The notes under the pieces are model-generated. The model did not search any database. It was not told the DNA's origin and saw only the letters and a list, made by a program, of their open reading frames with translations. The translations under genes were made by a program, and so were the position numbers. This document shows, one piece after another, positions 470-14,922 of a stretch of DNA of 64,000 bases (its first letter is position 1; every line of letters begins with the position of its first letter). The DNA is from Prochlorococcus sp. AG-442-N17 (GTDB lineage Bacteria; Cyanobacteriota; Cyanobacteriia; PCC-6307; Cyanobiaceae): NCBI GenBank assembly GCA_003212375.1, contig QCPY01000003.1, forward strand, positions 12,308 through 76,307, read 5' to 3'.

Positions 470-495
470 GGAATCAAAAAAATTTAGAGGAACTA
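470..495 (+). promoter_or_regulatory. Island motif copy 1, GGAATCA-N13-GAACTA (putative alternative-sigma promoter)
   Basis: GGAATCA 470-476, GAACTA 490-495; ATG at 529. Confidence 0.8.
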
Positions 496-528
496 TACAT
501 ACTCAAATAATTATAAATAAAACTTGAA

Positions 529-1266
529 ATGACCGTAAAAAAAGGATGGGGTTATTGGAAATATGAAGGTGAAGAAGCAGAACGAAATGGCGACTTTACT
601 AAGGCTTTGGAACTTTATTCTTTGGCGATTATAGAATGTCCATCTAATGAAGATGCATTTATTTCTAGAGGTCATGTCAAATGTGATCTTCGTGAATTTG
701 ACGGTGCAATCGATGATTTTACTGAAGCAATTGAGATAAACCCTAGAAACAAATATGGTTATATAAATAGAGCTTATGTTAATTTGAATTTTGAAAATTT
801 TGAAGATGTTCTGATTGATTCAACAAAGGCTTTAGAAATTGACTATTCGGATAAAGATGCATTTATTAATAGAGGTATGGCAAATCTATTTCTTAATAAT
901 TTTGATGATGCTATAAAAGACGCAACTGAAGCTATCTATCTTGATAGATATGATAAGGGTTTCTTTATTAGAGGATTAGCTAAATATAGGAAAAGAGATT
1001 TTAATAAGGCAATATTTGACTTTTCGAATGCAATTAATTGTCGTTCCGGTTTTTCATGGCAGTGTCTTTTTTTTAGAGCTGTTGCACGCGCAAGAAACAA
1101 TAATTATGAGGACGCTTTAGATGATTTCAAATCATTTATTGGTAAAAACAAAATGAGAAGAATTCAATTATTTAAAGATAATCTTGCTCAAAATAAAGAT
1201 ATTTTGAATGATATTCCTAAGGAAATGATAAGTCTTATAAGGCTTAATATTGGAAATTATTTTTAA
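529..1266 (+). CDS. TPR repeat protein
   Basis: Repeated units such as AFISRG...GAIDDFTEAIEINP. Confidence 0.9.
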   Translation: MTVKKGWGYWKYEGEEAERNGDFTKALELYSLAIIECPSNEDAFISRGHVKCDLREFDGAIDDFTEAIEINPRNKYGYINRAYVNLNFENFEDVLIDSTKALEIDYSDKDAFINRGMANLFLNNFDDAIKDATEAIYLDRYDKGFFIRGLAKYRKRDFNKAIFDFSNAINCRSGFSWQCLFFRAVARARNNNYEDALDDFKSFIGKNKMRRIQLFKDNLAQNKDILNDIPKEMISLIRLNIGNYF

Positions 1267-1271
1267 TCAAT

Positions 1272-1481
1272 TTATTTGTTTTTTATTGCAATTACTAAAT
1301 CCATTACAGCCCTTACGCCCTCTATAAGGATTTTTATTTCAGAAGGACCAACATTCTCAACATTATTTTCCTCTTTATTTATATATTCTATTATCTCATC
1401 TATATCTTCTGACATTTGTCTTAGCCTCAATTTTATATCAATTTTTTTTTCTCTTATGCCGCCTTTGTGCCATTTTGCCAT
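1272..1481 (-). CDS. Small hypothetical helical protein (69 aa)
   Basis: Protein-like composition; preceded by the island motif at the standard distance. Confidence 0.7.
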   Translation of the reverse strand: MAKWHKGGIREKKIDIKLRLRQMSEDIDEIIEYINKEENNVENVGPSEIKILIEGVRAVMDLVIAIKNK

Positions 1482-1510
1482 TTTCTGAATTTAAAAGGAT
1501 CAAATTCATA

Positions 1511-1537
1511 TAGTTCTATCTTTTGTAAAATGATTCC
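1511..1537 (-). promoter_or_regulatory. Island motif copy 2, GGAATCA-N14-GAACTA
   Basis: + strand reads TAGTTC 1511-1516 and TGATTCC 1531-1537; ATG at 1481. Confidence 0.8.
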
Positions 1538-1563
1538 TTTCTCATAAGGAGTGGAAAGTTCCA

Positions 1564-1589
1564 GGAATCAATTTTTGATTTCAGAACTA
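1564..1589 (+). promoter_or_regulatory. Island motif copy 3, GGAATCA-N13-GAACTA
   Basis: GGAATCA 1564-1570, GAACTA 1584-1589; ATG at 1621. Confidence 0.8.
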
Positions 1590-1620
1590 TTTAATAACTA
1601 GATTTAATAATTTATTTTTT

Positions 1621-2361
1621 ATGGAAAATGCATCAAATGAACTTGCTTTAACCTTTCAAAATCTGGGTTATTCAAGACATCAAAAGGGTGAATATAAAAA
1701 TGCCTGCGAAGATTATTTGAGATCAATTGAAATTAATCCAAATAATGGAAAGACCCATTATTTAATGGGTTTAAGTCTGACAAAACTTGGACTTTATGAT
1801 GATGCAATTTCAAGATTCGAAAAGGCTATAGAAGTTGATGAGGATAATTCATCAATCTATTATTATAACTTGGCTAAATTAAAGTTTAAACAAAATGATT
1901 TTGAAGGAGCAATTAAAGGTTATACCTCATTTATTGATACTGATACTAAGCTTAAGGAAACTGATGTGATTTATCTCAAAGCTTATTTTGAAAGAGCAAA
2001 TGCAAATAGAAATTTGAATAATAGATTTGAAGCAATTCTCGATTGGGCTTATGTTGTTGAACTAATAAAATTAAGAAATCAGCTGACATTGGAAGATGAA
2101 GATATATATGAACAGTCAAATGAATTTGGTGAATTTCTAAGAATGAAAAATCAAAAAAATTCTAGAGATCATGAAATTTATGCTGAAGCTTCATATCAAT
2201 TATCAAGAGAAAGAATTTCAGATCTAAGAACCCATGAAGAATTAAAGAAATTATCAACTATTGATAAATTAGCTTTATTCGATGATCTTGAAATGTACGA
2301 AGAATGGATTAAATCAGAATATAGTCCAGAGGCTTTAAAGAAAAAATATAGAAATAGATAA
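1621..2361 (+). CDS. TPR repeat protein with unknown C-terminal region
   Basis: N-terminal TPRs (YKNACEDYLRSIEINPNN, YDDAISRFEKAIEVD). Confidence 0.85.
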   Translation: MENASNELALTFQNLGYSRHQKGEYKNACEDYLRSIEINPNNGKTHYLMGLSLTKLGLYDDAISRFEKAIEVDEDNSSIYYYNLAKLKFKQNDFEGAIKGYTSFIDTDTKLKETDVIYLKAYFERANANRNLNNRFEAILDWAYVVELIKLRNQLTLEDEDIYEQSNEFGEFLRMKNQKNSRDHEIYAEASYQLSRERISDLRTHEELKKLSTIDKLALFDDLEMYEEWIKSEYSPEALKKKYRNR

Positions 2362-2388
2362 ACAATTACTTATTAATTATTTATTTAT

Positions 2389-3426
2389 TTATCTATCATT
2401 CATTAATTGTTCTTGACGCATTTTATTTAATTCTTTTAGCTTTTTATAATTTATCTCGGCATCTTTATATAACATCCAATCATCTTTTTTATTCTCGCTT
2501 AATTTAAAGTACATATTACTAAGACTAATTAAAATATCACAAACTTTATTAAATATTTCAAATGAAATTAGTTTTTTTTCGTTCTCTTCAGAGTGTTCTT
2601 TTATTAGTTTAAATATTTTTTCTGTATTATTATATTTAAAGTATTGAGAAGGTTCAATTTTATATAGTTGCAAACTTTTTACTAAGATAAGTTGTAATTC
2701 TTTGCTCGGATAATGATAAGTTAAAAAATCCATCAAATACCAATTATAAAATCCCATTAACCCTTCCATATTTTGATTTTCAAGGTAATCAATGGGTATA
2801 TCTCTTACTTTATCCCATATATTCTCAATCTTTGTGTTTAATTCAGGAGTAAGTTCAAAAATTTCAGTAGATGCATAAGAATTTTCTTCTTTTGGTGATT
2901 TATCATTTCTAGACTTTTCTTTAAGCCAGGTATCAGAATTTATATTTATGAATGTATTTCTATATTTTTTTGAAATGAATTCGTCTTCTTTTACTTTTTT
3001 AATATTGTGGATAATATCTTTAACAAAATTACTTAAAGTAGTCCATTCTTTTGCATAATCATTAAATTTTAAATTAGAACTATAGAAGTTTAAAAGCATA
3101 TTAAAATTAATCAAATCTTTATCTGGAAGTTTTGAAACTATGTAGGCAATAAAATATGAAAAATTAGAACCATAATTTCCTGATAAAAGGTATTCATTGA
3201 AATCTCTAATAATTTTTTTTGAAGGATAATTATTCTCATCAATTTCCCAGTTATCCATAAGTGATCTGAAATCAATAATTATTTGTCTCATAAATTTTTC
3301 CTTATCAGAATTTAGATATGTATCATTAATTAGGATCTCATCATTATTGGTTATTTCTCTGAGTTTTTGCATAGATTGTCTCAGATTGAACCTTGCTGCT
3401 GAAGCTGATAGTCTTTTGAAAATCAT
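2389..3426 (-). CDS. Hypothetical protein (345 aa)
   Basis: Long ORF, no recognisable family; N-terminal SAARFNLRQS resembles the N-terminus of the vWA protein. Confidence 0.75.
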   Translation of the reverse strand: MIFKRLSASAARFNLRQSMQKLREITNNDEILINDTYLNSDKEKFMRQIIIDFRSLMDNWEIDENNYPSKKIIRDFNEYLLSGNYGSNFSYFIAYIVSKLPDKDLINFNMLLNFYSSNLKFNDYAKEWTTLSNFVKDIIHNIKKVKEDEFISKKYRNTFININSDTWLKEKSRNDKSPKEENSYASTEIFELTPELNTKIENIWDKVRDIPIDYLENQNMEGLMGFYNWYLMDFLTYHYPSKELQLILVKSLQLYKIEPSQYFKYNNTEKIFKLIKEHSEENEKKLISFEIFNKVCDILISLSNMYFKLSENKKDDWMLYKDAEINYKKLKELNKMRQEQLMNDR

Positions 3427-3479
3427 ATTTAAGAGAAATAAAAATTAATTTAAAGTTTAATTTTTTATTCGAATATTTT

Positions 3480-4175
3480 CTAATTATCGATTTTTATTTT
3501 TCTAAAGGCTTCCTTAAAATATAAATCTTCACATATTGGATTTATAGTGGGTTCTAATTCTAAACCTCTATTCAAATCATTAATTGCACCAGTGTAGTCT
3601 TCTAATTTTAAGCCTCTAATATCTGATCTTTTGAAGTATAGATCTGCTTTAAATGGATAAAGCTTAATTGCTAAAGAAAGATCTTTCTCAGCTCCACGAA
3701 ATTCTCCTGACATCTTTTTAACTAAAGCACGTTTTTCAAATAGATAATGATCATCTGGATTTAATAAAATTGCTATACCGTAATCATCTATTGCACCTTC
3801 AAAGTCCAGTAAATTCTCCTTGGTTATGGCTCTTAATTCGTAAGCATCTTTATTGTTTGGATTTAATTTAATTACTTCATTGAAATCTGATAATGCAGAT
3901 TTATATTCTTTCAAAGCAAGCATAGATGACCCTCTCTCGATAATAAAAAAATAACTTTTTGGATTTAATAAAATGGCAATATTTAAATCATCTATTGCAC
4001 TTCTATCATTTAGTTGATTTTTGTAACATAAAGCCCGAAAATAATATCCACAAGTTCTGTAGGGTATAGAGATTATTGCCTCTGAATATTTTTTGATGGC
4101 TTCAGTATAATTTTCATTAAATTCTTCCTCAAGACCTTCACTTATCAATAATTCATATCTATATATATTAGACAT
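3480..4175 (-). CDS. TPR repeat protein
   Basis: About six tandem 34-aa TPRs (SAIDDLNIAILLNP, GAIDDYGIAILLNP). Confidence 0.9.
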   Translation of the reverse strand: MSNIYRYELLISEGLEEEFNENYTEAIKKYSEAIISIPYRTCGYYFRALCYKNQLNDRSAIDDLNIAILLNPKSYFFIIERGSSMLALKEYKSALSDFNEVIKLNPNNKDAYELRAITKENLLDFEGAIDDYGIAILLNPDDHYLFEKRALVKKMSGEFRGAEKDLSLAIKLYPFKADLYFKRSDIRGLKLEDYTGAINDLNRGLELEPTINPICEDLYFKEAFRKIKIDN

Positions 4176-4203
4176 TTTGTTTTAGTAAAAATTTATATAT
4201 ATG

Positions 4204-4229
4204 TAGTTCCTGCTTCTAATTTTGATTCC
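4204..4229 (-). promoter_or_regulatory. Island motif copy 4, GGAATCA-N13-GAACTA
   Basis: + strand TAGTTC 4204-4209, TGATTCC 4223-4229; ATG at 4175. Confidence 0.8.
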
Positions 4230-4253
4230 TTATAAAAAACATAAAAAAGTTAT

Positions 4254-5087
4254 TTATAAAAAAAGTCCATTTTTATCTGAAAAACTTGATTGGTTTATTA
4301 AATATTGAATAATATTTTTTTTAATATTTTTTTTACTTGTTTCAATAAATTTGTAATACTCATCTATTAAATCATCAGCATATTCGCACTCATCAAATAA
4401 ACATTCGTTATTTTCTACTACATAATTAGAATATTTAACTATATCATTTTCATTAACACATTTATCCTCTATTTTTTTTAGCTTTTTAAAAAAATTACTT
4501 ATAGAAAAATATAAACTATTTTCTCCAATTGTTGAAAGTTCAATTATATCTACTGGATATTTATGCAATCGCCATTTCCATAAAGTTTCTATTGCAGAAT
4601 CAAGATATAAATAACAGTGTGCATCAAAAAAATTGTGTTTGGTTTTTATTGCTTTTTTATATTTAGTTTCAAATTCTTTTATTTCTTCTTCTTCTATGAA
4701 TACGCTGCCTTTTTTTAAGTCTATTTTGCTAGATTTCTCCCATTTAGATATTTGAGCAAGATCTTTTATATTTATAGGTTTATTATTCTCTAAAAAATAA
4801 TCTTTGGCAATTTGATTTTCAAGTGTTATATCTAATATTTGCATAATATAATTTAAAAAATCATCATAAATATAAATATTTTCGTCATAAAATTCTGTTT
4901 CTTTTGGAGAAAGAGAATAAAAATTTTCTTCAAAATATCTTAATTCTCTTACTAATGAATAAGTTTTATCTTTTCGTATAATTTTCTCAACTTCATAAAC
5001 ATATATTGCATTTTTTTCATCTAAAAAAAGATCACTTTGATAATAATTATTAAAGTTAACAGATTTAAAATTATATATGTTTTCCAC
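4254..5087 (-). CDS. Hypothetical acidic protein, third gene of the AAA/vWA operon
   Basis: Long ORF 12 nt downstream of the vWA gene. Confidence 0.7.
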   Translation of the reverse strand: MENIYNFKSVNFNNYYQSDLFLDEKNAIYVYEVEKIIRKDKTYSLVRELRYFEENFYSLSPKETEFYDENIYIYDDFLNYIMQILDITLENQIAKDYFLENNKPINIKDLAQISKWEKSSKIDLKKGSVFIEEEEIKEFETKYKKAIKTKHNFFDAHCYLYLDSAIETLWKWRLHKYPVDIIELSTIGENSLYFSISNFFKKLKKIEDKCVNENDIVKYSNYVVENNECLFDECEYADDLIDEYYKFIETSKKNIKKNIIQYLINQSSFSDKNGLFL

Positions 5088-5099
5088 TATTTTTATTAA

Positions 5100-6278
5100 T
5101 TATAATTTACTTTCATTTAGTCTTATAACTTCTCCAAAAGTAAAATATTCACTTTCTTGGCCTCCAGGAGTAATCACCCATAGAACAGGTAATTCAGGGG
5201 TCTTAATTGGTAAATAAGCGTAGCCATCGGTTAAATATATACATACTGCATCTTTTTGAAAAGTATTAATTTTTTCTACTTCTTCAAAGAAAGGATCAAA
5301 ACTGGTAAAACCTCCACCTTCTGGATCAGGAATATCTTTTTCTTTATCAATATCAAAAGGACCATATAATTCAGTATCTGCATACCAAAGTTTGCATACT
5401 AAATTTGGGTAAGAATTAACAATTCCACTAAGTTCACTTAAGAACTTTTCTAATTCTTCTGTTGATACAGAGCCACTTGTATCTATACAGCAAAAAATAA
5501 ATACTGTCTCACCTTTTAATTCCTCAAAATAAATTTCATTATGAATAAATCTTCTGTCAAATCCTTCAAAATCATTTGGAGTTCTAACTAGAAATCTCCA
5601 TAAATGAGCTTTCCAGTTTATTTCTGGCTTAGTTATTTCATCACAATGCCTTTTGAAGGATTCAGGAATATTTGTCTGATCAGATTGCTTTGCTACTAAA
5701 AGAGAATCAGTTATTGCTTTTTTCCAAAATTGCTTTTTAGCATTTTGTTTATTTAACTCGTTTAATTCATCTAATTCTTTATTAGCTTTATTCGAATTAA
5801 CATTGTTATTTTTATGTACTAAATCATCAATAGGTAGATTTATTTTCTCTTTCTTTTTGAGTAATATTTCATAAATCTCTTCTACTTTTAGACTTTCTAA
5901 ATCTTCATCTCTTATAGCATTAGCAGGTAATTTTACTGAAGGCTCTGATGCAATCATTCCATTGACCACTATATCCGCCGCAATATTGAAAATATAATTA
6001 TCTCTCTCGCCCTTTCTCGAGCAATGTAATAGAGCCATATGTAAAAGCTCATGCAGAAAAATTGCATCCCTTTCTTTAGGTTTGAAATTAATATAATTTT
6101 GAGGATGAAAAAATATCTTTTGCCCATCAGTCGCAGCTATAGGAAATTCTTTAGTAAATTCAATTTCTGCATACATTGAAAGTGAGGCGAAAAATGGAGA
6201 AGATTGCCTTAGTCTTAAACGTGTAGCACTTATGTAATTAAATAATTCTGAAGTATCTTTTTCTTTTTTATTTTTCAT
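5100..6278 (-). CDS. DUF2201-type metallopeptidase + vWA domain protein
   Basis: AATDG and HELLH (HExxH) motifs; NIAADIVVN; MIDAS IDTSGS; GGGFTSF; YLTDG. Confidence 0.85.
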   Translation of the reverse strand: MKNKKEKDTSELFNYISATRLRLRQSSPFFASLSMYAEIEFTKEFPIAATDGQKIFFHPQNYINFKPKERDAIFLHELLHMALLHCSRKGERDNYIFNIAADIVVNGMIASEPSVKLPANAIRDEDLESLKVEEIYEILLKKKEKINLPIDDLVHKNNNVNSNKANKELDELNELNKQNAKKQFWKKAITDSLLVAKQSDQTNIPESFKRHCDEITKPEINWKAHLWRFLVRTPNDFEGFDRRFIHNEIYFEELKGETVFIFCCIDTSGSVSTEELEKFLSELSGIVNSYPNLVCKLWYADTELYGPFDIDKEKDIPDPEGGGFTSFDPFFEEVEKINTFQKDAVCIYLTDGYAYLPIKTPELPVLWVITPGGQESEYFTFGEVIRLNESKL

Positions 6279-7297
6279 TTAATAATCAACTCCTGATAAT
6301 TTTTTAAATATTTCTGCATTTGAGGATCGCCCATTACAACTTTTGCTAGAGAGGTGAGTTGTTTTTTTTCTTTAAAATTGGCAACTATATCAGACGCAAA
6401 TACCTGTATCCATTCAGGAGTTGTATTTTTGAAAAGCCACTGAAAAACTTCTTTCACCTCTTCCGCTTTATCAGTTCTTTTAGTTAGGCCTGTTATGGTT
6501 GCCCATTGTGTTGATACCTGTTTGGGGAAATTTATTTTTTCTCCATTACCTTTGATTATTTGAGCAAGATTAGGAAGGTTTTTATATACATTTAAAAATG
6601 AATTAAATTCTTCAGCTGCACCATCTCCAATTGCAGTATTAATTGGAAGATTAAGTTTAAATAAGTTGCTTGCCATTTCCCAGGATCTTGGAGATGGCCA
6701 TGCCTTTTCCTCAAAATTTACTTTATGCAGTAAGGCAGGTCTGAATCCAAGAAAACTTATTATTTCTTCTGGTAAATCTTTTTTAAGAGCGTGAGATTTA
6801 AAACAAGAAAAATTTACTTCTACATCTAAATGAAGAAAGCGATTATTTAGAGGTGTAGGCATTTCAAAGACTGATGCACGATCTTCCTTCCTATTACCAG
6901 CAGCCCAAATAAGCCAATCTTTAGGAACCCTATAATTGCCAACTTTCCTATCAAGTATCAGTTGTTGTGCTACTCCCTGCATTGCAGGAGGTGCCATATT
7001 TATTTCATCAAGAAATAATATACCTTTTCCTGCTTTTGGAAGAAATTCTGGAGGATACCATTTAGAAATACCTATTTCTGTTTTGCTTTTAGGATGAATT
7101 GCTACAGGTAGTCCTCTAAGATCAGTAGGAGCTAATTGACTGAGTCTTAAATCAATAAAATCATATCCTTTATTTTTTGCGGCCTGGCTTACAATACTTG
7201 ATTTTCCTATTCCAGGAGGACCCCATATCATTGCACTTATAGTTAGTTCTTCAGAAATTAATCTTTCTAGAAACGCAGTTAATTGGGATGGAGTCAT
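6275..7297 (-). CDS. MoxR-like AAA+ ATPase; start reassigned to ATG 7297 (MTPSQL...)
   Basis: Walker A GPPGIGKS, Walker B LFLDE, AAGNR, NRF, SPRSW; the ORF-track extension to 7366 overlaps the promoter motif. Confidence 0.9.
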   Translation of the reverse strand: MTPSQLTAFLERLISEELTISAMIWGPPGIGKSSIVSQAAKNKGYDFIDLRLSQLAPTDLRGLPVAIHPKSKTEIGISKWYPPEFLPKAGKGILFLDEINMAPPAMQGVAQQLILDRKVGNYRVPKDWLIWAAGNRKEDRASVFEMPTPLNNRFLHLDVEVNFSCFKSHALKKDLPEEIISFLGFRPALLHKVNFEEKAWPSPRSWEMASNLFKLNLPINTAIGDGAAEEFNSFLNVYKNLPNLAQIIKGNGEKINFPKQVSTQWATITGLTKRTDKAEEVKEVFQWLFKNTTPEWIQVFASDIVANFKEKKQLTSLAKVVMGDPQMQKYLKNYQELIIK

Positions 7298-7324: not shown

Positions 7325-7351
7325 TAGTTCTTTTCTTTCAAATGTGATTCC
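7325..7351 (-). promoter_or_regulatory. Island motif copy 5, GGAATCA-N14-GAACTA
   Basis: + strand TAGTTC 7325-7330, TGATTCC 7345-7351; ATG at 7297. Confidence 0.8.
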
Positions 7352-7426
7352 AAATAATTTCCTCAAATATAATTAGTGTTATTATTTTTAAATACTTATA
7401 GTAAGAAATTTAATGGTCTATATCAG

Positions 7427-10297
7427 ATGATTAAAAGTGCAAAAAATATAGGCTTTATTTTCGTTTTAATTTCAATTACTGTTTTAACTGGAAGATTTTT
7501 TTTAAACTCTAAAAATAATTTTATAAATACTGAAAGAACCAATATTGAAATAAGGACTATTTATGAAAAGCTTAAACCATTACTAGATAAAGCAAAATTA
7601 GCTTCTGATCAAGGCGATAATTTAAAGGTTATTAATATACTTAAACAAATAAACCAAAAAATTAATATTCTTGATGATTCAGAACTCCAAAAAAATATCT
7701 ATAGAGGTAAAAACCTTAATGCTATAGCTCAAAATTATCAAGTTATTGGATATTTTAAAGAGGCTGAGGATTATTATCTTAAAGCTGCAAAAGTTTATTT
7801 AGATATTCCTTTTAAAGAAAATTCTCAATATGTTTTAGAAAACTATTTATATTTATCTAATCTCTATTCCGAAATAGAGTATTACGATAGAGGTATAGCA
7901 ACTTTGCTGATCGCAAATAATTTAATAGAGGAACAAATTGGAAAAAAAATACCTGAAAGTTATATTATTGCTGGGGAAATTGGAGAATTATATTTAGATA
8001 AAGGTGAATTTCTAAGCGCCGAAGTTTTTATTGAAGCCGCGATAAAAGGTTTAGAGGAATTGAATATAAATCATGAAATGAAAAGTAAGTATCAACTTGA
8101 ATTGGCAGATTTATATATAAGACAAAAAAAGTATATAGAGTCTGAAAAACTACTTAGCCAGTTAATCAAAAAAAAATACTATAAAAATCCATCTATATTT
8201 GGTTTATTAACAAAAGTTTTATTAGAACAAAAAAGATTTGATGATGCAGAAAATATGGCAATTTCATTACTAAGTGAAAATGAAAAAAACTATAAAAATA
8301 AAATTAATCATTATCATCCATATCTCTTAGCAAATATTGCTTTTATATATGATTTTCAAGGACTTTTTTATAAGTCAAATCCTTATCATATGCGTTTAGT
8401 TAATCCTGATTATGACATTTCATTTTTGGATAATGATTTTAAAATATCTATTTTAAATAATGCAGGATTTAACTTTATGAGTTTGGGCATTTATGAACCA
8501 GCGGAAATTTTCTTTAAAGCAGCATTAGAAGCAAATAAAATTAGATTTAATAAAGATCATGAGAAAAATATAAAAACATTATCAAATTTGGCTTTGTTTT
8601 ATGCCATAAGAAATGAATATAATACATCTAAAGATTACGGCTATAGGGCTTTAACAAAATTTTTTGAAACTATTCAAGAAAAAGTACAAGACTTAAACAT
8701 TATTGAAAGACAGAAATATCTTTCTGAATCATATCTTGATGTTCATTTATTCCCTTTTGCTTTGATTGAACAAGATAGCTCTTATAAAAACTTGGCATTA
8801 TTTTCAAGAATAAATTATCAGGGTTTATTACAGGATATAGAAAATAGACAAAATAGATTAAAAATTCTTGATCCTGAAATTAAGCAGTTAAGAAATAATC
8901 TAAAACTTATAGAAAGTAAATTATCTTCAAATAAAACCTTAAACTCTGAAAAATTTAGAAGAGAACTATTCTCAAGGAAAATCGAACTTGAAAAATCTTT
9001 AAATGTATTATTACCTAAATTAAATCCAATAATTTATGACGCCGACGATATAGCAAGTGTAATACCAAAAGATTCTTTATTAATTGAATATCAAAAGTAT
9101 GATAGTGCAAAAAAAGAACCTTTTAAGAATTTAAAACCCAAGGAAAAATATTTAGCTTTGATTCTTTCTCCTGATGGAAATATTTCATCTTTTGATTTAG
9201 GTTCTGCGGAAGTTATTGAATCAACGATAGATGCTGCAACTAAAGCTACTAAATTAAAAACAAATAATGCTTTGCAAAAATGGAGAGAAGTTAGTGATCT
9301 TATTATAAAACCTCTTACTGAAGAAATTAATCAAAAAGATAGATTAATCATTTCGCCTGATTCTGCCCTAAATAAAGTTGCATATTCTGCATTGGGATCG
9401 CCTTTAAGCGAGAACTTATTAAATGATGATTTTCAAGTAAATTTAATTACCGCAGGTAGAGATTTATTGGATATTAATCAAGCAAATTCTCATAAAAGTA
9501 CTATGCCCATTGTTATTGCAAATCCTGATTTTGGAAAACCAAAGTCAAATATCAGGAGATTTAAAAATATAAAAAGTGATTTTTATAAAAGAACTGAAAC
9601 CGAAATATTAGAGTATAAATTAGACCTAAAAGGTACCTCATCACAATCATGGAAACTTCTTCCTTTCTCCAAACTAGAGGGACAAGATATTAAAGAAATA
9701 ATTAATGCACAACTTTTTATGAATGAAGAAGCAAAAGCTTCATTGATATTTGAAAATAATATTTCTCCAAAAATTATTCATATAGCAAGTCATTCTTTTT
9801 ATCATGATGCTTATTATGATTCAGCAATTGAAGACTATAATAAAAATCCGCTTAATCGAAGTGGAATAGTATTTGCAGGAGCAAATTTAAATTTTGAAAA
9901 TGATAATGATGATGGATTTTTAACTGCGTTAGAAATTTCAAGACTTGATCTTAGAGGGACTGAATTATTTGTTGTATCAGGTTGTGAATCTGCAATGGGA
10001 GACTTAAGAATTGGAGAAGGTATTTATGGTTTAAAAAGATCTATTGCAGTAGCAGGGGCTCAATCAAGTTTGCTTTCTTTATGGAATATAAGAGATGATT
10101 CAACGGCGATATTTATGACTTCTTTTTATAAAAGACTTAAGAAAGGGGAAACAAAATCTGAGGCACTATATAACACTCAAAGAGATTTTAGAGAGGGTAA
10201 AATCAAAAGTAGTAATCCTGAATTATATGATTGGAGTAAGCCATTTTATTGGGCGCCTTTTCAATTAAGTGGGGATTGGAAGTCGATAGAATTATAA
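7427..10297 (+). CDS. Membrane-anchored/exported TPR-CHAT (caspase-like, HetF-type) protease
   Basis: N-terminal hydrophobic helix IGFIFVLISITVLTG; TPRs; CHAT motifs LIISPDSALN, IHIASHS (His), VSGCES (Cys), SLW, YWAPF; likely start ATG 7427 (ORF track: GTG 7376). Confidence 0.9.
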   Translation: MIKSAKNIGFIFVLISITVLTGRFFLNSKNNFINTERTNIEIRTIYEKLKPLLDKAKLASDQGDNLKVINILKQINQKINILDDSELQKNIYRGKNLNAIAQNYQVIGYFKEAEDYYLKAAKVYLDIPFKENSQYVLENYLYLSNLYSEIEYYDRGIATLLIANNLIEEQIGKKIPESYIIAGEIGELYLDKGEFLSAEVFIEAAIKGLEELNINHEMKSKYQLELADLYIRQKKYIESEKLLSQLIKKKYYKNPSIFGLLTKVLLEQKRFDDAENMAISLLSENEKNYKNKINHYHPYLLANIAFIYDFQGLFYKSNPYHMRLVNPDYDISFLDNDFKISILNNAGFNFMSLGIYEPAEIFFKAALEANKIRFNKDHEKNIKTLSNLALFYAIRNEYNTSKDYGYRALTKFFETIQEKVQDLNIIERQKYLSESYLDVHLFPFALIEQDSSYKNLALFSRINYQGLLQDIENRQNRLKILDPEIKQLRNNLKLIESKLSSNKTLNSEKFRRELFSRKIELEKSLNVLLPKLNPIIYDADDIASVIPKDSLLIEYQKYDSAKKEPFKNLKPKEKYLALILSPDGNISSFDLGSAEVIESTIDAATKATKLKTNNALQKWREVSDLIIKPLTEEINQKDRLIISPDSALNKVAYSALGSPLSENLLNDDFQVNLITAGRDLLDINQANSHKSTMPIVIANPDFGKPKSNIRRFKNIKSDFYKRTETEILEYKLDLKGTSSQSWKLLPFSKLEGQDIKEIINAQLFMNEEAKASLIFENNISPKIIHIASHSFYHDAYYDSAIEDYNKNPLNRSGIVFAGANLNFENDNDDGFLTALEISRLDLRGTELFVVSGCESAMGDLRIGEGIYGLKRSIAVAGAQSSLLSLWNIRDDSTAIFMTSFYKRLKKGETKSEALYNTQRDFREGKIKSSNPELYDWSKPFYWAPFQLSGDWKSIEL

Positions 10298-11491
10298 GCA
10301 TTTATTATTATTTATTACTGTAGATTTCGCTTTCTCAATAACTTTTGAATCAGGTGCTTTTTCTGAAAAAAGAAGTGCCAAAGCCATATCTTGCTCTTTT
10401 TTAAGTTTATTATTTATATTTTTTATCCAAGCAGATTTACTACTCCCAATCTTTTTGATTTCATTAGAAAGCTTTTTAAATGATTTTTGTGGACTAGCTT
10501 TTAAGGTTATATCTAAATATTCTTCGGAAGATATACTATTCTGCGCGAAGCTAATAAGATATTCTTCATTTGGCTCTACAGGTTTAATTGGCCATTGAAT
10601 AGGTTTATATGATTTTTTATTGGAGTTAATTTCTCTTGACCAGATAATTTTCCCATTCTTTGAAATTATAATTTTTTCAACTTTAGTTTTTGGAAAAATT
10701 AAGGGTTTATCAAAAGATAAATTAACAATATTTTTTGTACCATCAAATGATGAATTGGGACTTAATAAACAAATTTTTATATTATTTTCCTCAGAACTAC
10801 TTCTTGTATATATAGGCTCTAATTTATTTGCTGAAATAGAGGCAAGATTATAAACTAATCTTGGTTTGAAAAGGGATGGTGTGGCAAATATACCAGCTAG
10901 AATTAATAGACCTAAACTTAATTTTTTTCTATGAAAAATTAAATTTTCTAATAAATTTATTCTTATTTTACTTTCTCTTAATCCTTCTCTGGATAGAGCT
11001 TCTAAATCTAGAATTTGAATCATTGATAGAAGTCTGTTTATGCCACCTTTAAAAGAGTTAATTGGAATATTTACATATTTATTTTTTGGATTAGGTTCTT
11101 TAATTAGGTTCTTAAATTCTTTTTCAGTAATTAATCCAGGGAATTCGATTAAACCATTTTCTTCATCTATGCTCATCGCAAGAATTAATTGAGGGGCTGA
11201 GTTCTTTTTGTACCATCTTTTCAAAGGAATAATTGCTTCATCAGAACTTATTCCTGTAATTACTATTTGAATATAAAACTTGTTTATCTCAACTAAACAA
11301 TCTAAATCTTTAATACTTGAAATTAATTTGACTTCAAGATTTAAGTTTTCATCAGAAATAACTTTTTTCAAAGCAACTATAGAAGCTTGATCAAGACTTT
11401 TTACTTTTTCTATATCTATAGACACTGCACTATCAGAGATAGGCTTTGCCTCAAAGAAATTATCATCAGAATTAGTCAATTTTCCCTTCAT
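10292..11491 (-). CDS. Single-pass membrane protein with DUF1822-like N-domain and DUF928-like C-domain (candidate anti-sigma)
   Basis: EAIIPLKRW...LILAMSIDEE..IEFPG resembles DUF1822; TM about aa 191-207 after HRKK; ICLLSP...PLIF...IIWS...WP..P..P.EEY resembles DUF928; 4-nt overlap with the upstream sigma-like gene. Family calls from memory. Confidence 0.6.
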   Translation of the reverse strand: MKGKLTNSDDNFFEAKPISDSAVSIDIEKVKSLDQASIVALKKVISDENLNLEVKLISSIKDLDCLVEINKFYIQIVITGISSDEAIIPLKRWYKKNSAPQLILAMSIDEENGLIEFPGLITEKEFKNLIKEPNPKNKYVNIPINSFKGGINRLLSMIQILDLEALSREGLRESKIRINLLENLIFHRKKLSLGLLILAGIFATPSLFKPRLVYNLASISANKLEPIYTRSSSEENNIKICLLSPNSSFDGTKNIVNLSFDKPLIFPKTKVEKIIISKNGKIIWSREINSNKKSYKPIQWPIKPVEPNEEYLISFAQNSISSEEYLDITLKASPQKSFKKLSNEIKKIGSSKSAWIKNINNKLKKEQDMALALLFSEKAPDSKVIEKAKSTVINNNKCL

Positions 11492-12846
11492 TTTTTAATC
11501 AAATAATTGACGGTATCCTGCAAAATAGATGTATTTTTATTTGATTGTCTTTTAGTAATATATTCAATCAAACTATTTATAACTTTATCTATTTCTAAAG
11601 GACTTGTTTTCATCCCTTTAAATTCCTTAAGATCCTTTAGTTTTAATGCTGTTTTAAGTGAGATTTTTTCTGCTAAGGTTTTTTCTTTTAATAATTTACT
11701 AACCCACCCTTGCTTATGGTTGCATCTCTTTGCTATGTCTCTTTGGCTATATCCTTTTGAATATAGTTCCCATGCCAATTTTCTATCTTTATCTCTAAGC
11801 CATATTATTTTTTCTTTTTTAAAAATAATTTCTAAGGTATCTTTGGCTAATTCTTTTGATAATTTCTTAATTAGATATATTTGTCTTTCTTCTTTAATTT
11901 GATCCTCATTGCTAGATGCCTCGTATTTTTTTTCTAAAAGAAATTGTTTAATTGATGGCATAGATTCAGGAGACTTTAATCCTTTCTCATATTTTCTGAT
12001 TGCTGCAGCAATACATTCCAAATTATCTAATGTACTTTGTTTGGGATTTAGGGTATTAATAAATGCCTGATTAGGTACCCAACCACTAATCCTTCCATAC
12101 TTTTTTTTGTATGCTGCTTTGGCCTTCTTATAATTGATAAGATAACTTCTGTGAAGACTAATAATCTCATCATTATTTATTTTTAAGGTATTAAATTCCT
12201 TGCAGGCTTCTAAAATTCTTTTTGTACTCGTATCAGCAATTAAAGACCAGTCACTTTGTAATCTTAAATTACATTTAACCAGATATTTTTTTAGGCTAGG
12301 CTCTGATTTGATTTGATGTGTAGTCCAGGTGTCTAGGCTAGATAATTTTTTATTGAAGGTTTTTATTATTTTTGCAGAGAATGGATATAAATTATTAGAG
12401 GTTATGATCGATAAACTTTGCCAATTAAAAGGTTTTTTAAATTTTTTGTCGTTTACTGATGAAGTTTTTATAAATTTTTCTCCTCTATCATTCAATACAT
12501 ATGAAAGCATTGTTAGATAATCTATTTCATGTAATTCCGTATGCTTTTTATAGAGATAATCTATATTTTTCTTTATAGGATCACTTAACCTGCATCTTAT
12601 ACATAAGATTGGATCAATGCTTTCTGAAAACTTTTTACTTAGTTCTAATAACATATTATCCGATGCTTTAGATTTGATTTCAGAAACTATATTGTTTTTA
12701 TCAAGATATTCACTGCAGACATTAAAGTTCTTTTCTTTTATATCTTTTCCGAAAGAATTTAAATAAATTAAGGTTTCGTAAGGTGTGTTCAATATTGACA
12801 AGAAATTTAAATTCTGACTAAGTATACAATTAATTTCCATTTTCAA
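11488..12846 (-). CDS. Divergent sigma70-like DNA-binding protein of the cyanobacterial type found next to DUF1822 genes
   Basis: Region-2-like IIKTFNKKLSSLDTWT; region-4-like HTH LAWELYSKGYSQRDIAKRCNHKQGWVSKLL; motifs LCIRC and SDWSLIADT. Confidence 0.65.
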   Translation of the reverse strand: MKMEINCILSQNLNFLSILNTPYETLIYLNSFGKDIKEKNFNVCSEYLDKNNIVSEIKSKASDNMLLELSKKFSESIDPILCIRCRLSDPIKKNIDYLYKKHTELHEIDYLTMLSYVLNDRGEKFIKTSSVNDKKFKKPFNWQSLSIITSNNLYPFSAKIIKTFNKKLSSLDTWTTHQIKSEPSLKKYLVKCNLRLQSDWSLIADTSTKRILEACKEFNTLKINNDEIISLHRSYLINYKKAKAAYKKKYGRISGWVPNQAFINTLNPKQSTLDNLECIAAAIRKYEKGLKSPESMPSIKQFLLEKKYEASSNEDQIKEERQIYLIKKLSKELAKDTLEIIFKKEKIIWLRDKDRKLAWELYSKGYSQRDIAKRCNHKQGWVSKLLKEKTLAEKISLKTALKLKDLKEFKGMKTSPLEIDKVINSLIEYITKRQSNKNTSILQDTVNYLIKK

Positions 12847-12867
12847 GTAGATGACTTAAATAAAATT

Positions 12868-12893
12868 GGAATCAAAAGATATTTTCAGAACTA
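12868..12893 (+). promoter_or_regulatory. Island motif copy 6, GGAATCA-N13-GAACTA
   Basis: GGAATCA 12868-12874, GAACTA 12888-12893; TTG start at 12922. Confidence 0.8.
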
Positions 12894-12921
12894 AATAGGA
12901 TTAGTTAATTATTCAACTATC

Positions 12922-13737
12922 TTGGTACAAACAAAATTAAAATATGCATATAGTGAAAATCAAGATTTATTTGGATCTTTTCTTAATGAGTCTTCAGTTA
13001 AGATGGTTCATCAGGACTATTTTGGGGCTATTGAAGCTGTTACTAAAGCTATAAATTTAAATAATAAATATCCAATTCCCTTTATCAGGAGAGCAGAGAT
13101 AAGATACAAGATTAAAGATTATAAAAATGCAAATGATGATTTAAGAGAAGCTTTTAAATTAAAAAAAAATTGTCCAGAAAATTATTTATTTAGAGCTTAC
13201 TTCTTAGCTTATTCGATAAATAAAAACCTTGAAAATAGTAAAGATTCCTTTATTAATTTAGAAAAAGCTATAAATCTGAGGAATTCATCAAAAGCAAAAA
13301 TATGGCCAATTGAGATTTATTTTTTATATGAGAAAAAGGGCGACTTTTTAAAAGAGTCAGGTAAATATGATCATGCAATTTTTGAATATTCAAAAGCGAT
13401 TGGATCATATATTAGTGATCCAATTGCTAATGCGAGACTGCATTCTAAAAGAGGCTGGTTAAACTACCATGAAAGTAATTATGCATATGCAATAAATGAT
13501 TTTTCGATAGCTATAAAGAAAGCTAAACAAATAGATAAATATCATTACTTCATGGCAAGAGGATTTTCTCTGATAAAGATTAATAATATCGAAGCTGCTT
13601 TTGACGATTTTAAAAATGCTTTGGAATGTAATCAACTTGCAATTGAATTTTATAAAGATTTTTTTTTGAATTTTGTTGAACGAGAAATTTGTAATTTGCT
13701 ACAGGTTTATTTTGAAATAAGGCTAAAAAATGATTAA
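12922..13737 (+). CDS. TPR repeat protein
   Basis: DYFGAIEAVTKAINLN and YAYAINDFSIAIK repeats. Confidence 0.85.
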   Translation: MVQTKLKYAYSENQDLFGSFLNESSVKMVHQDYFGAIEAVTKAINLNNKYPIPFIRRAEIRYKIKDYKNANDDLREAFKLKKNCPENYLFRAYFLAYSINKNLENSKDSFINLEKAINLRNSSKAKIWPIEIYFLYEKKGDFLKESGKYDHAIFEYSKAIGSYISDPIANARLHSKRGWLNYHESNYAYAINDFSIAIKKAKQIDKYHYFMARGFSLIKINNIEAAFDDFKNALECNQLAIEFYKDFFLNFVEREICNLLQVYFEIRLKND

Positions 13738-14404
13738 AAAGAAATTTTATAAATTATCACCCTCTATCAAAGCTGAAAAGATAGCAACAAGAGCAAAGAA
13801 TTGTGATGATGAAATAAATTATAAATATGCAATTATGGAGATATCTAAAGCTCTAGAAGTAAACGATGAATGTGAAACTACATACTTTATAAGAGGAGAT
13901 TTATACTCCCAAATGGATGGATATCATGATCAAGCTATTAGCGACTTTACTAAGGCAATTGAATTAGATCCAAATGATTTCGCAAAATATAATGCTAGGG
14001 GAAGGGCATATCTAAAAGCAGAAAAATATGAAAATGCCATTAATGATTTTACAAAAGTAATTGAGATGAGTATGTCAACTTTATTGATGGACTCTTCTTC
14101 AGTTTTTGAAGAGAGAGGTTTTGCATTTTTAAAATGCGGATTTTTTGGTAAAGCAATTAGTGATTTTTCAGAATCATTGAAAGATTCCGAAGATGAGATT
14201 AAGTTTTTGTGCAGAGCTATGGCATTAGCCAAAAATGATAATTATGATGGAGCATTAAATGACTTGATAGCAGCATCAAATATTAACGGTAATTGCCTAA
14301 AGGAGAATAAAAACTTTTTATCCGATTTTCCAAAAGATTTTAAAGCAATTTTATTTATACATTTCCCTAAAAAATATCTTGATGATTTGAATTTATCTAT
14401 TTAA
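13730..14404 (+). CDS. TPR repeat protein
   Basis: QAISDFTKAIELDPN, NAINDFTKVIE; overlaps the previous stop. Confidence 0.9.
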   Translation: MIKKKFYKLSPSIKAEKIATRAKNCDDEINYKYAIMEISKALEVNDECETTYFIRGDLYSQMDGYHDQAISDFTKAIELDPNDFAKYNARGRAYLKAEKYENAINDFTKVIEMSMSTLLMDSSSVFEERGFAFLKCGFFGKAISDFSESLKDSEDEIKFLCRAMALAKNDNYDGALNDLIAASNINGNCLKENKNFLSDFPKDFKAILFIHFPKKYLDDLNLSI

Positions 14405-14413
14405 ATTAAAGAT

Positions 14414-14890
14414 TTATTTTGAAATCTCAGAAGAAGATTTCTCTCTAAAACTTTTAAAGGCAGGATTGTTTTGTGCAATATCTATTTTATGTTGGGCGAC
14501 AGGCAACTCATTGAAAAGAATATGATAAGAGGCTATCAGTCCTATCGATATAGTACTTATAACTCCAGGTGCGGAAGTCAGGTTGAGAAATAACAGAATG
14601 ATTCCAACTGCAAAAACAATTCCTAAAAAAGAAAAATTTTTCATAAAGTTGATATTCATCAAGGTTGAATGTCTAAGCCAAGACATACAGAATACGCATA
14701 TTGGATAATTGAATAAATAAATCAAGTAAATAAATTCCTTGAATCTAAAGGCTAGTATTACAGGAACTATTATTGCAGCAGCAGTGGTTACTGTTGAAAG
14801 TAAGTTCCCAATAAATAATTTAAAGGAATAATTAGTCATTGCATCCATATATTTTTTGGCCGCTCTGTCTTCCTCTTTTGTGAAATTCAT
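14414..14890 (-). CDS. Hypothetical membrane protein (about 4 TM)
   Basis: Four hydrophobic segments. Confidence 0.7.
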   Translation of the reverse strand: MNFTKEEDRAAKKYMDAMTNYSFKLFIGNLLSTVTTAAAIIVPVILAFRFKEFIYLIYLFNYPICVFCMSWLRHSTLMNINFMKNFSFLGIVFAVGIILLFLNLTSAPGVISTISIGLIASYHILFNELPVAQHKIDIAQNNPAFKSFREKSSSEISK

Positions 14891-14895
14891 AATAA

Positions 14896-14922
14896 AGAAT
14901 CATCAATACCTATTCAGAACTA
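14896..14922 (+). promoter_or_regulatory. Island motif copy 7, AGAATCA-N14-GAACTA (one mismatch)
   Basis: AGAATCA 14896-14902, GAACTA 14917-14922; ATG at 14950. Confidence 0.75.

What the first reader, a model, noticed from the sequence alone, without database searches (positions are those of the whole stretch)
470..14922. Island-private bipartite motif GGAATCA-N13/14-GAACTA precedes seven transcription units
Seen directly: copies at 470-495(+), 1511-1537(-), 1564-1589(+), 4204-4229(-), 7325-7351(-), 12868-12893(+) and 14896-14922(+). Six are exact and the last has one mismatch. Each points towards the next gene, with the G of GAACTA 39, 35, 37, 34, 33, 34 and 33 nt before the start codon. 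The spacers share no sequence, only length. I saw no full copy in the 47 kb of core genome. My rough estimate at 30% GC is below 0.01 exact copies expected by chance in 64 kb. Established: a GGAA-type -35 box plus a conserved -10 box at near-fixed spacing is the layout of ECF-type sigma promoters. Inference: these are promoters of a dedicated regulon read by the island's own sigma-like protein.
Basis: partly seen in the sequence, partly recalled or inferred. Interest (0 to 1): 0.92.

Follow-up and report, generated by a model that had tools for sequence, protein, structure and literature searches.

The report
Promoter motif of island sigma-like factor
A two-box DNA motif in front of seven gene units of a Prochlorococcus-type genomic island is real and recurs beside the same unusual sigma-factor-like gene in about 8% of related marine cyanobacteria, so it is most likely that factor's own promoter and marks out a small, apparently protease-controlled gene circuit that can now be tested.

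Summary
Six exact copies of GGAATCA-N13/14-GAACTA and one copy with one mismatch lie at the stated coordinates. None is expected by chance, and no other exact copy exists in the 1.18-Mb assembly. Each copy points at a start codon 33-39 nt away.

The 452-aa island protein has homologues in 34 of 401 picocyanobacterial genomes (30-67% GC). GGAATCA-N13/14-GAACNA occurs 4.6 times per genome in those genomes and 0.5 times in the others. The copies cluster next to the gene and sit in front of diverse genes.

The protein models with sigma2-like and sigma4-like domains. Its neighbour is a DUF1822-type protein that is predicted to clamp both domains. A TPR-CHAT protease completes the conserved core.

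Best reading (about 0.75): these are promoters read by the island's own divergent sigma-like factor, which is probably held by the DUF1822 partner and released by proteolysis. No transcription start site or binding data exist.

The sigma/DUF1822/caspase gene trio was catalogued computationally in 2021 (Kaur et al., eLife). This scan had already met the trio, with promoter-like motifs, in filamentous cyanobacteria. The picocyanobacterial branch, its motif and its regulon appear to be undescribed.

The parts
470..495 (+). Motif copy 1 (N13), 39 nt from the G of GAACTA to the ATG of the TPR gene 529-1266
1511..1537 (-). Motif copy 2 (N14), ahead of the 69-aa ORF 1272-1481(-). It sits back to back with copy 3.
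1564..1589 (+). Motif copy 3 (N13), ahead of the TPR gene 1621-2361
4204..4229 (-). Motif copy 4 (N13), ahead of the TPR gene 3480-4175(-) and the unknown 345-aa gene 2389-3426(-)
7325..7351 (-). Motif copy 5 (N14), ahead of an operon of three genes: a MoxR-like AAA ATPase (ATG at 7297, ends 6275), a DUF2201 vWA/metallopeptidase-like gene (5100-6278) and an unknown 277-aa gene (4254-5087). The same promoter position is conserved in two other genomes.
12868..12893 (+). Motif copy 6 (N13), ahead of the two TPR genes 12922-13737 and 13730-14404. It is divergent from the sigma-like gene.
14896..14922 (+). Motif copy 7 (N14, AGAATCA, one mismatch), ahead of the M48 peptidase gene 14950-15810. M48 orthologues in other genomes carry the motif at the same place.
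11488..12846 (-). The 452-aa divergent sigma70-like protein (P0001). It models with a sigma2-like fold at about residues 30-195, a middle insert, a sigma4-like HTH at about 320-406 and a C-terminal extension. No motif copy lies upstream of it in this window.
10292..11491 (-). The 399-aa partner (P0002), whose start overlaps the sigma-like gene's stop by 4 nt. It has a DUF1822-type N-domain with a restriction-endonuclease-like fold, a hydrophobic segment at about residues 190-210 and an Ig-like C-terminal domain. Its N-domain is predicted to bind the sigma-like protein.
7427..10297 (+). TPR-CHAT (caspase-like) protease. It has no motif copy, and a TATAAT lies at 7369-7374.
15910..17179 (-). Tyrosine integrase (15910-16902), tRNA-Thr (17015-17087) and tRNA-Tyr (17097-17179). 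These mark the right edge of the island.

Best explanation
The seven sites are promoters of a small regulon transcribed by RNA polymerase carrying the island's own divergent sigma70-family protein (452 aa). On this reading GGAATCA is the -35 box, read by the sigma4-like HTH. GAACnA, with the purine-rich bases that follow it, is the -10 region, read by the sigma2-like domain. The inferred start is the conserved pyrimidine-purine step 10 nt after GAACnA, which places the boxes at about -36..-30 and -15..-10 and gives leaders of about 18-24 nt here. The sigma-like gene is always followed by a DUF1822-type gene. The N-domain of that partner is predicted to grip both sigma domains, as an anti-sigma factor would. 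In this lineage the partner also carries a membrane segment. A TPR-CHAT caspase-like protease is the third conserved gene. The likely circuit has four steps. The protease, the sigma-like factor and the partner are made constitutively. A still unknown signal activates the protease. The partner is cut and the sigma-like factor is freed. The freed factor switches on the motif-bearing units, which are six TPR proteins, a MoxR-AAA/vWA-metallopeptidase operon, an M48 peptidase and a 69-aa protein. What is shown: the motif, its specificity, its conservation, its position and its co-occurrence with the gene; the sigma-like folds; and a predicted sigma-partner interface. What is inferred: promoter activity, RNA polymerase binding, the start site, the proteolytic gating and the signal.
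For: Specificity. There are six exact copies against 0 expected and no other exact copy in the 1.18-Mb assembly.

Co-occurrence. Homologues of the protein occur in 34 of 401 family genomes. GGAATCA-N13/14-GAACNA gives 157 hits in those 34 genomes and 188 hits in the other 367. Among the rows listed for homologue-bearing genomes, about 68 of 88 hits lie within about 26 kb of the gene. In five genomes that lack the gene but have raised counts, the hits are scattered, and several recur as near-identical sequences in more than one of these genomes.

Density. There are 82 exact sites in 21 loci totalling about 382 kb, at 30-67% GC.

Position. 55 of 82 sites are intergenic, although only 19% of the DNA is intergenic. 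53 of 82 have a same-strand ATG-ORF start within 80 nt downstream (median 42 nt), against 12 of 82 for the antisense control.

Footprints. The orthologous AAA and M48 upstream regions keep only the two boxes.

Start-site pattern. A pyrimidine at +9 and a purine at +10 after the hexamer occur in 91%/96% of low-GC sites and 76%/99% of high-GC sites.

The protein. The AlphaFold model has pLDDT 86.9. Thirteen of the 15 best of 48,161 PDB representatives are sigma factors, including RpoS region 2 (Z 6.8, rmsd 2.8 A over 95 residues), SigA domain 2 (Z 6.7, rmsd 2.6 A over 92) and pro-sigmaK (Z 7.3). TIGR02937 matches below its threshold in 22 of 32 homologues, with best E 4.3e-7. The sigma4 part aligns to cyanobacterial ECF sigmas with hhalign probability 90.7% and E 1.2e-6. 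The HTH residues V382 (in at least 90% of sequences), S383 and K384 (invariant) accompany an invariant GGAATCA box.

The partner. The predicted complex scores 0.79 against a best control of 0.00. That mark was reached by 58 of 80 solved complexes and by 2 of 110 mismatched pairs. The three runs share at least 83% of their contacts and the partner's pLDDT is at least 82. The interface touches sigma2 (residues 94-106 and 176-210) and sigma4 (residues 380-423).

Conserved core. The sigma-like gene and the partner gene are adjacent in 20 of 20 loci, and a CHAT gene is nearby in 17 of 20.
Against: There are no TSS, ChIP, reporter or RNA polymerase data for any member of this family. The protein fails the curated sigma70/ECF cut-off (20.1 bits against 42.9). 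Its sigma2 region is not significant by profile comparison (E 0.033), so the sigma2 assignment rests on middling structural Z-scores of 6-7. The protein is twice the size of an ECF sigma and carries unexplained extra domains. The sigma-like gene has no motif copy upstream of it in this window, whereas most ECF sigma genes are autoregulated. The partner has a nuclease-like fold, not a known anti-sigma fold.
Confidence: 0.75

Rival explanations
1. The sites are operators of the 452-aa protein acting as an ordinary HTH transcription factor (activator or repressor) with the host's housekeeping sigma, not as a sigma subunit.
For: The protein is below the sigma70 family cut-off. Only its C-terminal HTH is significant by sequence. 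The two boxes can be read as an imperfect direct repeat RGAAyyA spaced 19-20 bp apart. The co-occurrence data fit any dedicated DNA-binding protein equally well.
Against: The N-terminal domain superposes on sigma domain 2 from many sigma factors. The boxes are unlike each other. They tolerate N13 or N14, as two flexibly linked domains would. They fall at -35 and -12 relative to a conserved pyrimidine-purine step. No separate sigma70-type -10/-35 pair is conserved in the footprints. The predicted partner wedges between the two domains, as anti-sigma factors do.
Confidence: 0.13
2. The motif is a promoter class of a chromosomal host sigma factor (group 1-3) that happens to be used by island genes.
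For: The assembly has four ordinary sigma70-family genes.
Against: No exact copy exists outside the island in this assembly. Genomes without the island gene have only scattered hits, at 0.5 per genome. The motif stays the same from 30% to 67% GC and travels with the gene.
Confidence: 0.03
3. The sites are recombination or cassette-boundary sites of a mobile element, in the manner of integron-type or transposon-end repeats.
For: The island lies beside an integrase and tRNA genes. Its gene content varies between genomes. Nearly every unit has one site.
Against: The boxes have no inverted-repeat symmetry. Each site sits at a narrow distance from a start codon and is strictly oriented towards it. 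One copy lies inside the sigma-like coding sequence and points at the partner gene in most loci. I did not look for recombinase genes in the related loci.
Confidence: 0.03
4. The motif acts at the RNA level, as a 5'-leader element bound by a protein or folding into a regulatory structure.
For: The motif lies 27-33 nt before start codons. In relatives a hairpin often follows it.
Against: The seven copies share no fold (z-scores from -1.8 to +1.3). There is no Rfam match other than the two tRNAs. The boxes are not complementary to each other. Only the DNA-binding-type protein co-varies in presence with the motif.
Confidence: 0.03

Closest known systems
Caspase (EACC2-CHAT) + 'ECF sigma' + DUF1822 gene neighbourhoods of cyanobacteria and other bacteria, described computationally by Kaur, Iyer, Burroughs and Aravind, eLife 2021 (PMC8195603)
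   Same: The gene trio is the same. In distant cyanobacteria, homologues of the 452-aa protein are followed by bona fide DUF1822 genes (PF08852, E 1e-36 to 1e-48) and then by CHAT-CHASE2 or CHAT-nSTAND proteins. The partner protein here aligns to DUF1822 with hhalign probability 95.9% and E 6.3e-9. The paper proposes that the sigma mediates transcription of many genes.
   Different: The passages of that paper that I read give no promoter, regulon or experiment. The picocyanobacterial branch is too divergent for Pfam to recognise. Its protease carries N-terminal TPRs instead of a C-terminal sensor domain. Its partner has a membrane segment and an Ig-like domain. The system sits on a tRNA-linked island of a unicellular organism with a streamlined genome.
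CASP-sigma of type III-E CRISPR (Craspase): the TPR-CHAT protease Csx29 cuts Csx30 and frees an ECF sigma (Strecker et al., Science 2022, PMC10028731)
   Same: A TPR-CHAT protease is linked genetically to a sigma factor and to an inhibitor that binds it. That sigma's motif occurs at three promoters inside its own locus, and reporters depend on the sigma. This is the best model for how the present system may work.
   Different: No Cas or gRAMP genes and no CRISPR array were found in the island. The sigma there is a canonical ECF (HHpred probability 100%). The inhibitor Csx30 has no evident relation to DUF1822. Here seven sites, not three, make up most of the island's transcription.
Classical ECF sigma/anti-sigma switches released by proteolysis (E. 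coli RpoE/RseA, B. subtilis SigW/RsiW; also CalpL-CalpT-CalpS and M. xanthus DdvS/DdvA controlling a defence island)
   Same: These share the bipartite promoter with a GGAA-type -35 box and near-fixed spacing, the sigma gene translationally coupled to a membrane partner that binds sigma2 and sigma4, and the logic of release by proteolysis (established knowledge).
   Different: The protein has 452 aa and extra domains, and it scores below the ECF model cut-off. The partner has a restriction-endonuclease-like fold, not a helical anti-sigma domain. The sigma gene is not autoregulated here. In relatives only the partner gene has its own motif copy.

Membership tests
ECF-type (group 4) sigma70 factor and its promoter class | A bipartite promoter with two different boxes at near-fixed spacing, oriented towards genes | tested here: met
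   The spacing is N13 or N14 only, there are 82 exact sites, and the orientation bias is 53 sites against 12 in the antisense control.
ECF-type (group 4) sigma70 factor and its promoter class | The boxes lie at -35 and -10 relative to a mapped transcription start | not testable with these tools
   Only metatranscriptome contigs were available. A conserved pyrimidine-purine step 10 nt after GAACNA gives an inferred start.
ECF-type (group 4) sigma70 factor and its promoter class | The protein has a sigma4 (region 4.2 HTH) domain | tested here: met
   hhalign against nine cyanobacterial ECF sigmas gives probability 90.7% and E 1.2e-6 over 75 columns. The structural match to sigma-H 3mzy has Z 4.9.
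ECF-type (group 4) sigma70 factor and its promoter class | The protein has a sigma2 domain | tested here: inconclusive
   The structure supports it: Z 6.7-7.3 and rmsd 2.6-4.3 A over 92-105 residues against several sigma2 domains, with 13 of the top 15 hits being sigma factors. The sequence profile is not significant (E 0.033).
ECF-type (group 4) sigma70 factor and its promoter class | The protein passes the curated family model (TIGR02937, 42.9 bits) | tested here: not met
   It scores 20.1 bits with E 3.9e-4. Twenty-two of 32 homologues match below the threshold, with best E 4.3e-7.
ECF-type (group 4) sigma70 factor and its promoter class | A two-domain architecture of about 200 aa (sigma2 and sigma4 only) | tested here: not met
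   The protein has 452 aa, with an N-terminal hairpin region, a middle insert of about 115 aa and a C-terminal extension.
ECF-type (group 4) sigma70 factor and its promoter class | Binds core RNA polymerase and directs initiation | not testable with these tools
   This needs biochemistry.
Caspase + sigma + DUF1822 neighbourhood (Kaur et al. 2021) | The sigma-like gene is adjacent to a DUF1822-family gene | tested here: met
   The two genes are adjacent and co-oriented in 20 of 20 loci. The partner N-domain aligns to DUF1822 with probability 95.9% and E 6.3e-9. An Atlas DUF1822 cluster matches with TM 0.61. Pfam PF08852 itself does not hit the partner.
Caspase + sigma + DUF1822 neighbourhood (Kaur et al. 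2021) | An adjacent caspase/CHAT protease gene | tested here: met
   PF12770 matches with E 2.8e-53. A CHAT gene is present in 17 of 20 related loci.
Caspase + sigma + DUF1822 neighbourhood (Kaur et al. 2021) | An EACC2 adaptor domain on the caspase protein | not tested
   No model of EACC2 was available in the libraries searched.
Type III-E CRISPR CASP system (Craspase/CASP-sigma) | A Cas7-11/gRAMP effector and a CRISPR array with the TPR-CHAT gene | tested here: not met
   Pfam and NCBIfam scans of the island's ORFs of at least 50 aa found no Cas domains. No island protein hit PADLOC.

The most novel reading that the evidence does not exclude
The 452-aa protein and its cyanobacterial relatives form a previously unrecognised group of sigma70-family initiation factors. 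They are double-sized and are restrained by a DUF1822 partner with a nuclease-like fold instead of a classical anti-sigma domain. In Prochlorococcus and marine Synechococcus the protein travels on islands as a self-contained, caspase-gated transcription switch with its own invariant promoter (GGAATCA-N13/14-GAACnA). That would give organisms with only a handful of ordinary sigma factors (four found in this assembly) a horizontally acquired, inducible regulon, possibly an anti-phage or stress response.
Probability: 0.5. Interest if true: 0.8.

Novelty: new variant of a known kind. Interest (0 to 1): 0.68.

Why it matters
Prochlorococcus and marine Synechococcus are the most abundant phototrophs in the ocean. 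Their genomic islands are thought to be where phage-host and niche adaptation happen, yet how island genes are regulated is almost unknown. Here the DNA itself marks out a complete candidate circuit: a sensor protease, an inhibitor, a sigma-like factor, and seven promoters with their output genes. The caspase/sigma/DUF1822 module was predicted on paper in 2021 and has, as far as I could find, never been tested. An invariant 13-base motif with more than 80 natural examples gives a ready reporter and a defined regulon. With these, one can ask whether a bacterial caspase-like protease controls transcription through a new kind of sigma/anti-sigma pair, and what the TPR, MoxR-vWA and M48 outputs do.

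Tried and rejected
RNA evidence. The run search found only two metatranscriptome runs, holding 5-7% of the sampled words. Laying them gave short contigs at depth 0-6 across the island, which cannot show starts, ends or strand. No conclusion on expression was drawn. Joints such as 4333->10767 had sides of 18-22 nt, so I did not interpret them.

Sigma70-type promoter and terminator scan. It found fewer promoter-like sites than the shuffles did (82 against 98), so it is uninformative in this AT-rich DNA.

att repeat. I looked for a direct repeat of the tRNA-Thr end that would mark the left island border. Nothing longer than 13 nt turned up.

Profile search of the whole sigma-like alignment against PDB sequences. 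It gave only weak HTH hits (MarR at E 0.0075, SigF at E 0.22). Foldseek on the whole model gave nothing at E <= 0.001, although sigma factors were among its weak top rows.

Pfam on the sigma-like and partner families. The sigma-like family gave only generic, sub-threshold HTH hits. The partner family gave no DUF1822 hit.

PADLOC. No island protein matched a catalogued defence system.

The motif in distant cyanobacteria. The picocyanobacterial motif was not found in 12 loci around distant homologues. My simple de novo pair counts there recovered only coding repeats: FG-GAP-like, WD40 and 40-42-aa TPR arrays. I briefly suspected that those arrays were CRISPR repeats, and they are not. Other agents of this scan report promoter-like motifs in those lineages, and I could not compare their consensus with mine.

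Raised motif counts in genus g37 without the gene. The hits proved to be scattered, and several recur in more than one of these genomes.

RNA-element reading. There is no shared fold and no Rfam family.


Full report
**1. The observation**

A pattern search finds six exact matches to GGAATCA-N13/14-GAACTA in the 64-kb window. Allowing mismatches adds the copy at 14896-14922, which reads AGAATCA. It also adds a one-mismatch hit inside the integrase gene on the antisense strand, which I regard as chance.

The window is C3:12308-76307 of a 1.18-Mb, 34-contig assembly with 31% GC and 72.6% completeness. In that whole assembly the six exact copies are the only ones. Each copy points at an ORF. The distance from the G of GAACTA to the start codon is 39, 35, 37, 34, 33, 34 and 33 nt, as stated.

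**2. The surroundings**

The motif-bearing units encode:
- five TPR-only proteins (529, 1621, 3480-, 12922 and 13730);
- a 69-aa protein;
- an unknown 345-aa protein;
- an operon of a MoxR-like AAA ATPase, a DUF2201 vWA/metallopeptidase-like protein and an unknown 277-aa protein;
- an M48 peptidase.

Three genes carry no motif copy. They are a 973-aa TPR-CHAT protease, the 452-aa protein P0001 and the 399-aa protein P0002, whose start overlaps the stop of P0001 by 4 nt.

The island ends at a tyrosine integrase next to tRNA-Thr and tRNA-Tyr. Upstream of the window lies a cluster of cytosine methylase, HATPase and Z1 genes. The best named homologue of P0001 is a hypothetical protein of Prochlorococcus sp. 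MIT 0601. The organism is therefore a picocyanobacterium of the Prochlorococcus type.

**3. The decisive comparison**

P0001 has homologues in 34 of 401 sampled genomes of the family, in 15 of 64 genera. This patchy distribution fits a mobile island.

I fetched 20-kb contexts for 20 of these genomes and scanned them. Every locus carries several copies of GGAATCA-N13/14-GAAC(T/A/G)A, although the loci range from 31% to 67% GC and the proteins fall to about 25% identity.

Across the same 401 genomes the pattern GGAATCA-N13/14-GAACNA gives 157 hits in the 34 genomes with the gene (4.6 per genome). It gives 188 hits in the other 367 genomes (0.5 per genome). In the complete genomes listed, the hits cluster beside the gene: 6 of 7 within 8 kb in one genome and 8 of 9 within about 18 kb in another. 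Over all rows listed for homologue-bearing genomes, about 68 of 88 hits lie within about 26 kb of the gene.

Five genomes of one genus had raised counts without the gene. Their hits are scattered along the chromosome, several recur as near-identical sequences in more than one genome, and no homologue is present.

So the motif travels with the gene.

**4. Position and footprint**

There are 82 exact sites in about 382 kb of loci.
- 55 of the 82 are intergenic, although only 19% of that DNA is intergenic by a crude gene call.
- 53 have a same-strand ATG-ORF start within 80 nt downstream, at a median of 42 nt. The antisense control gives 12.
- Most of the remaining sites precede small ORFs, many with signal-peptide-like starts, or lie in the last codons of the sigma-like gene itself.

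The upstream regions of orthologous AAA and M48 genes from three genomes each align only at the two boxes and the start codon.

The extended consensus is roughly T-rich, GGAATCA, c(c/t), spacer, yCR, GAACnA, gAAG, and then a pyrimidine at +9 and a purine at +10 after the hexamer. These last two hold in 91%/96% of low-GC sites and 76%/99% of high-GC sites. If that purine is the start, the boxes sit at -36..-30 and -15..-10. This is an inference, not a measurement. Six of the seven copies in the window show the pyrimidine-purine step. N14 is twice as common as N13.

**5. The protein**

An alignment of 32 homologues shows an invariant W174 in a 'TW...N..LK.YL' stretch that resembles sigma region 2.3/2.4. 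It also shows a 'GLSQREIA..C....G.VSK' stretch that resembles region 4.2.

The AlphaFold model has mean pLDDT 86.9. Aligned against 48,161 PDB representatives, 13 of its 15 best matches are sigma factors. They cover residues about 30-195 (sigma domain 2) and 320-406 (sigma domain 4), with Z 5.8-7.4. Examples are RpoS region 2 (rmsd 2.8 A over 95 of 96 residues) and M. tuberculosis SigA domain 2 (rmsd 2.6 A over 92 residues). These Z values are middling, and the weight lies in the consistency of the hits.

The curated sigma70/ECF model matches below its cut-off in 22 of 32 homologues, with best E 4.3e-7. A profile comparison with nine cyanobacterial ECF sigmas is significant for the sigma4 part (probability 90.7%, E 1.2e-6) but not for the sigma2 part.

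The protein is thus sigma-like by fold. It is not a canonical ECF sigma, because it is twice the size, carries a middle insert of about 115 residues and has a C-terminal extension.

**6. The partner and the protease**

P0002 and its relatives always follow the sigma-like gene on the same strand (20 of 20 loci). A CHAT protease gene lies nearby in 17 of 20 loci.

The conserved N-domain of the partner (residues about 27-165) models as a restriction-endonuclease-like fold: D212 nuclease at Z 7.8, and also PvuII and Hjc. It aligns to DUF1822 with hhalign probability 95.9% and E 6.3e-9. The Atlas match to a DUF1822 cluster has TM 0.61.

In distant cyanobacteria, homologues of the sigma-like protein occur in 50 of 401 genomes of the phylum. 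There they are followed by bona fide DUF1822 genes and then by CHAT-CHASE2 or CHAT-nSTAND proteins.

A complex prediction of P0001 with the partner's N-domain scored 0.79 against a best control of 0.00. That mark was reached by 58 of 80 solved complexes and by 2 of 110 mismatched pairs. The three runs share at least 83% of their contacts, and the partner's pLDDT is at least 82. The interface touches both the sigma2-like and the sigma4-like parts. This supports binding of the anti-sigma kind but does not prove it.

In most relatives one N13 motif copy lies inside the last codons of the sigma-like gene and points at the partner gene. That arrangement would give negative feedback. The copy is absent in this window.

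In this window the CHAT gene probably starts at 7427 and has a TATAAT at 7369-7374. In several relatives the CHAT gene lies downstream of a motif copy.

**7. Mechanism and rivals**

The best-supported reading is a protease-gated sigma switch in which the motif is the promoter class of the island's own sigma-like factor (confidence about 0.75).

The main rival is that the same protein acts as an ordinary HTH regulator at these sites (about 0.13). A host-sigma promoter, a recombination site and an RNA element are each unlikely, for three reasons. The motif is absent elsewhere in the genome. It is strictly oriented and lacks symmetry. No RNA fold or Rfam family is shared.

**8. What is known**

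[quoted passage not shown] They proposed a transcriptional output. The passages I read give no promoter and no experiment.

The nearest tested analogue is CASP-sigma of type III-E CRISPR. There the TPR-CHAT protease Csx29 cuts Csx30 and frees an ECF sigma, whose motif lies at three promoters in its own locus.

Full-text searches for DUF1822, for the motif and for Prochlorococcus with these terms found nothing further. No island protein matches PADLOC.

This scan has already met the sigma/DUF1822/CHAT cassette, with promoter-like motifs, in filamentous cyanobacteria. I could not compare those motifs with this one. The present motif was not found in 12 distant loci that I fetched.

**9. Verdict**

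The finding is real and its interpretation holds up as far as sequence analysis can take it. It is a new, very clean variant of a kind of system that has been predicted but never tested. It occurs in ecologically dominant organisms and comes with a ready-made regulon. The missing piece is any direct evidence of transcription initiation.

Noticed in passing
L007:6305-12400 and window 1-240 (assembly C3:6305-12547): Directly upstream of the island lies a co-oriented cluster of a C-5 cytosine DNA methylase, an HATPase_c_3 protein, a Z1-domain protein and a fourth gene that runs into the window. It looks like a methylase-linked restriction or defence cassette, so the tRNA-proximal region holds at least two accessory modules.
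   Followed up: partly
L039:11882-11960, L040:4028 and 2384 (-), L044:7326, L046:6288 and 5614 (-), L055:18174 and 19207: In relatives, many motif copies are followed about 10 nt later by a short GC-rich hairpin (GGAGG..CCTCC type) and then by a small ORF with a signal-peptide-like start, often rich in Gly, Tyr and Ser. This could be a conserved leader for a family of small exported proteins in the regulon. The window's own copies lack it.
   Followed up: no
Sigma-like gene 3' end in most related loci, for example L050:10577-10602, L052:10590-10615 and L055:9453-9478 (-): One N13 motif copy lies inside the coding sequence and encodes the conserved ..NHL..EQEGD.. peptide of the sigma-like protein, so DNA and protein constraints overlap there. 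The copy is lost in this window, where the peptide also differs.
   Followed up: partly
G209:C7:118955-119461 and G138:C19:119810-120271: Two related genomes have a second, divergent pair of motif copies about 50 kb from the sigma-like gene. These may be remote members of the regulon.
   Followed up: no
L047:13792-14517, L049:5610-6299, L050:13788-14498 and similar places in the high-GC loci: The Synechococcus/Cyanobium-type loci carry a second, shorter gene with similarity to the partner protein (21-30% identity over about 35-55% of it). Their main partner lacks the membrane segment and the C-terminal part seen in the Prochlorococcus type.
   Followed up: no
window 10292-11491 (P0002 residues 84, 109-111): The DUF1822-type N-domain has a nuclease-like fold and keeps near-invariant acidic residues (D84, D109 and E111, in a VDEEN stretch). 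The partner might therefore bind or cut nucleic acid as well as bind the sigma-like protein.
   Followed up: no
window 16178-16204 (+): A one-mismatch motif match (GAACTT) lies antisense inside the integrase gene. No ORF follows it, so it is probably chance.
   Followed up: partly
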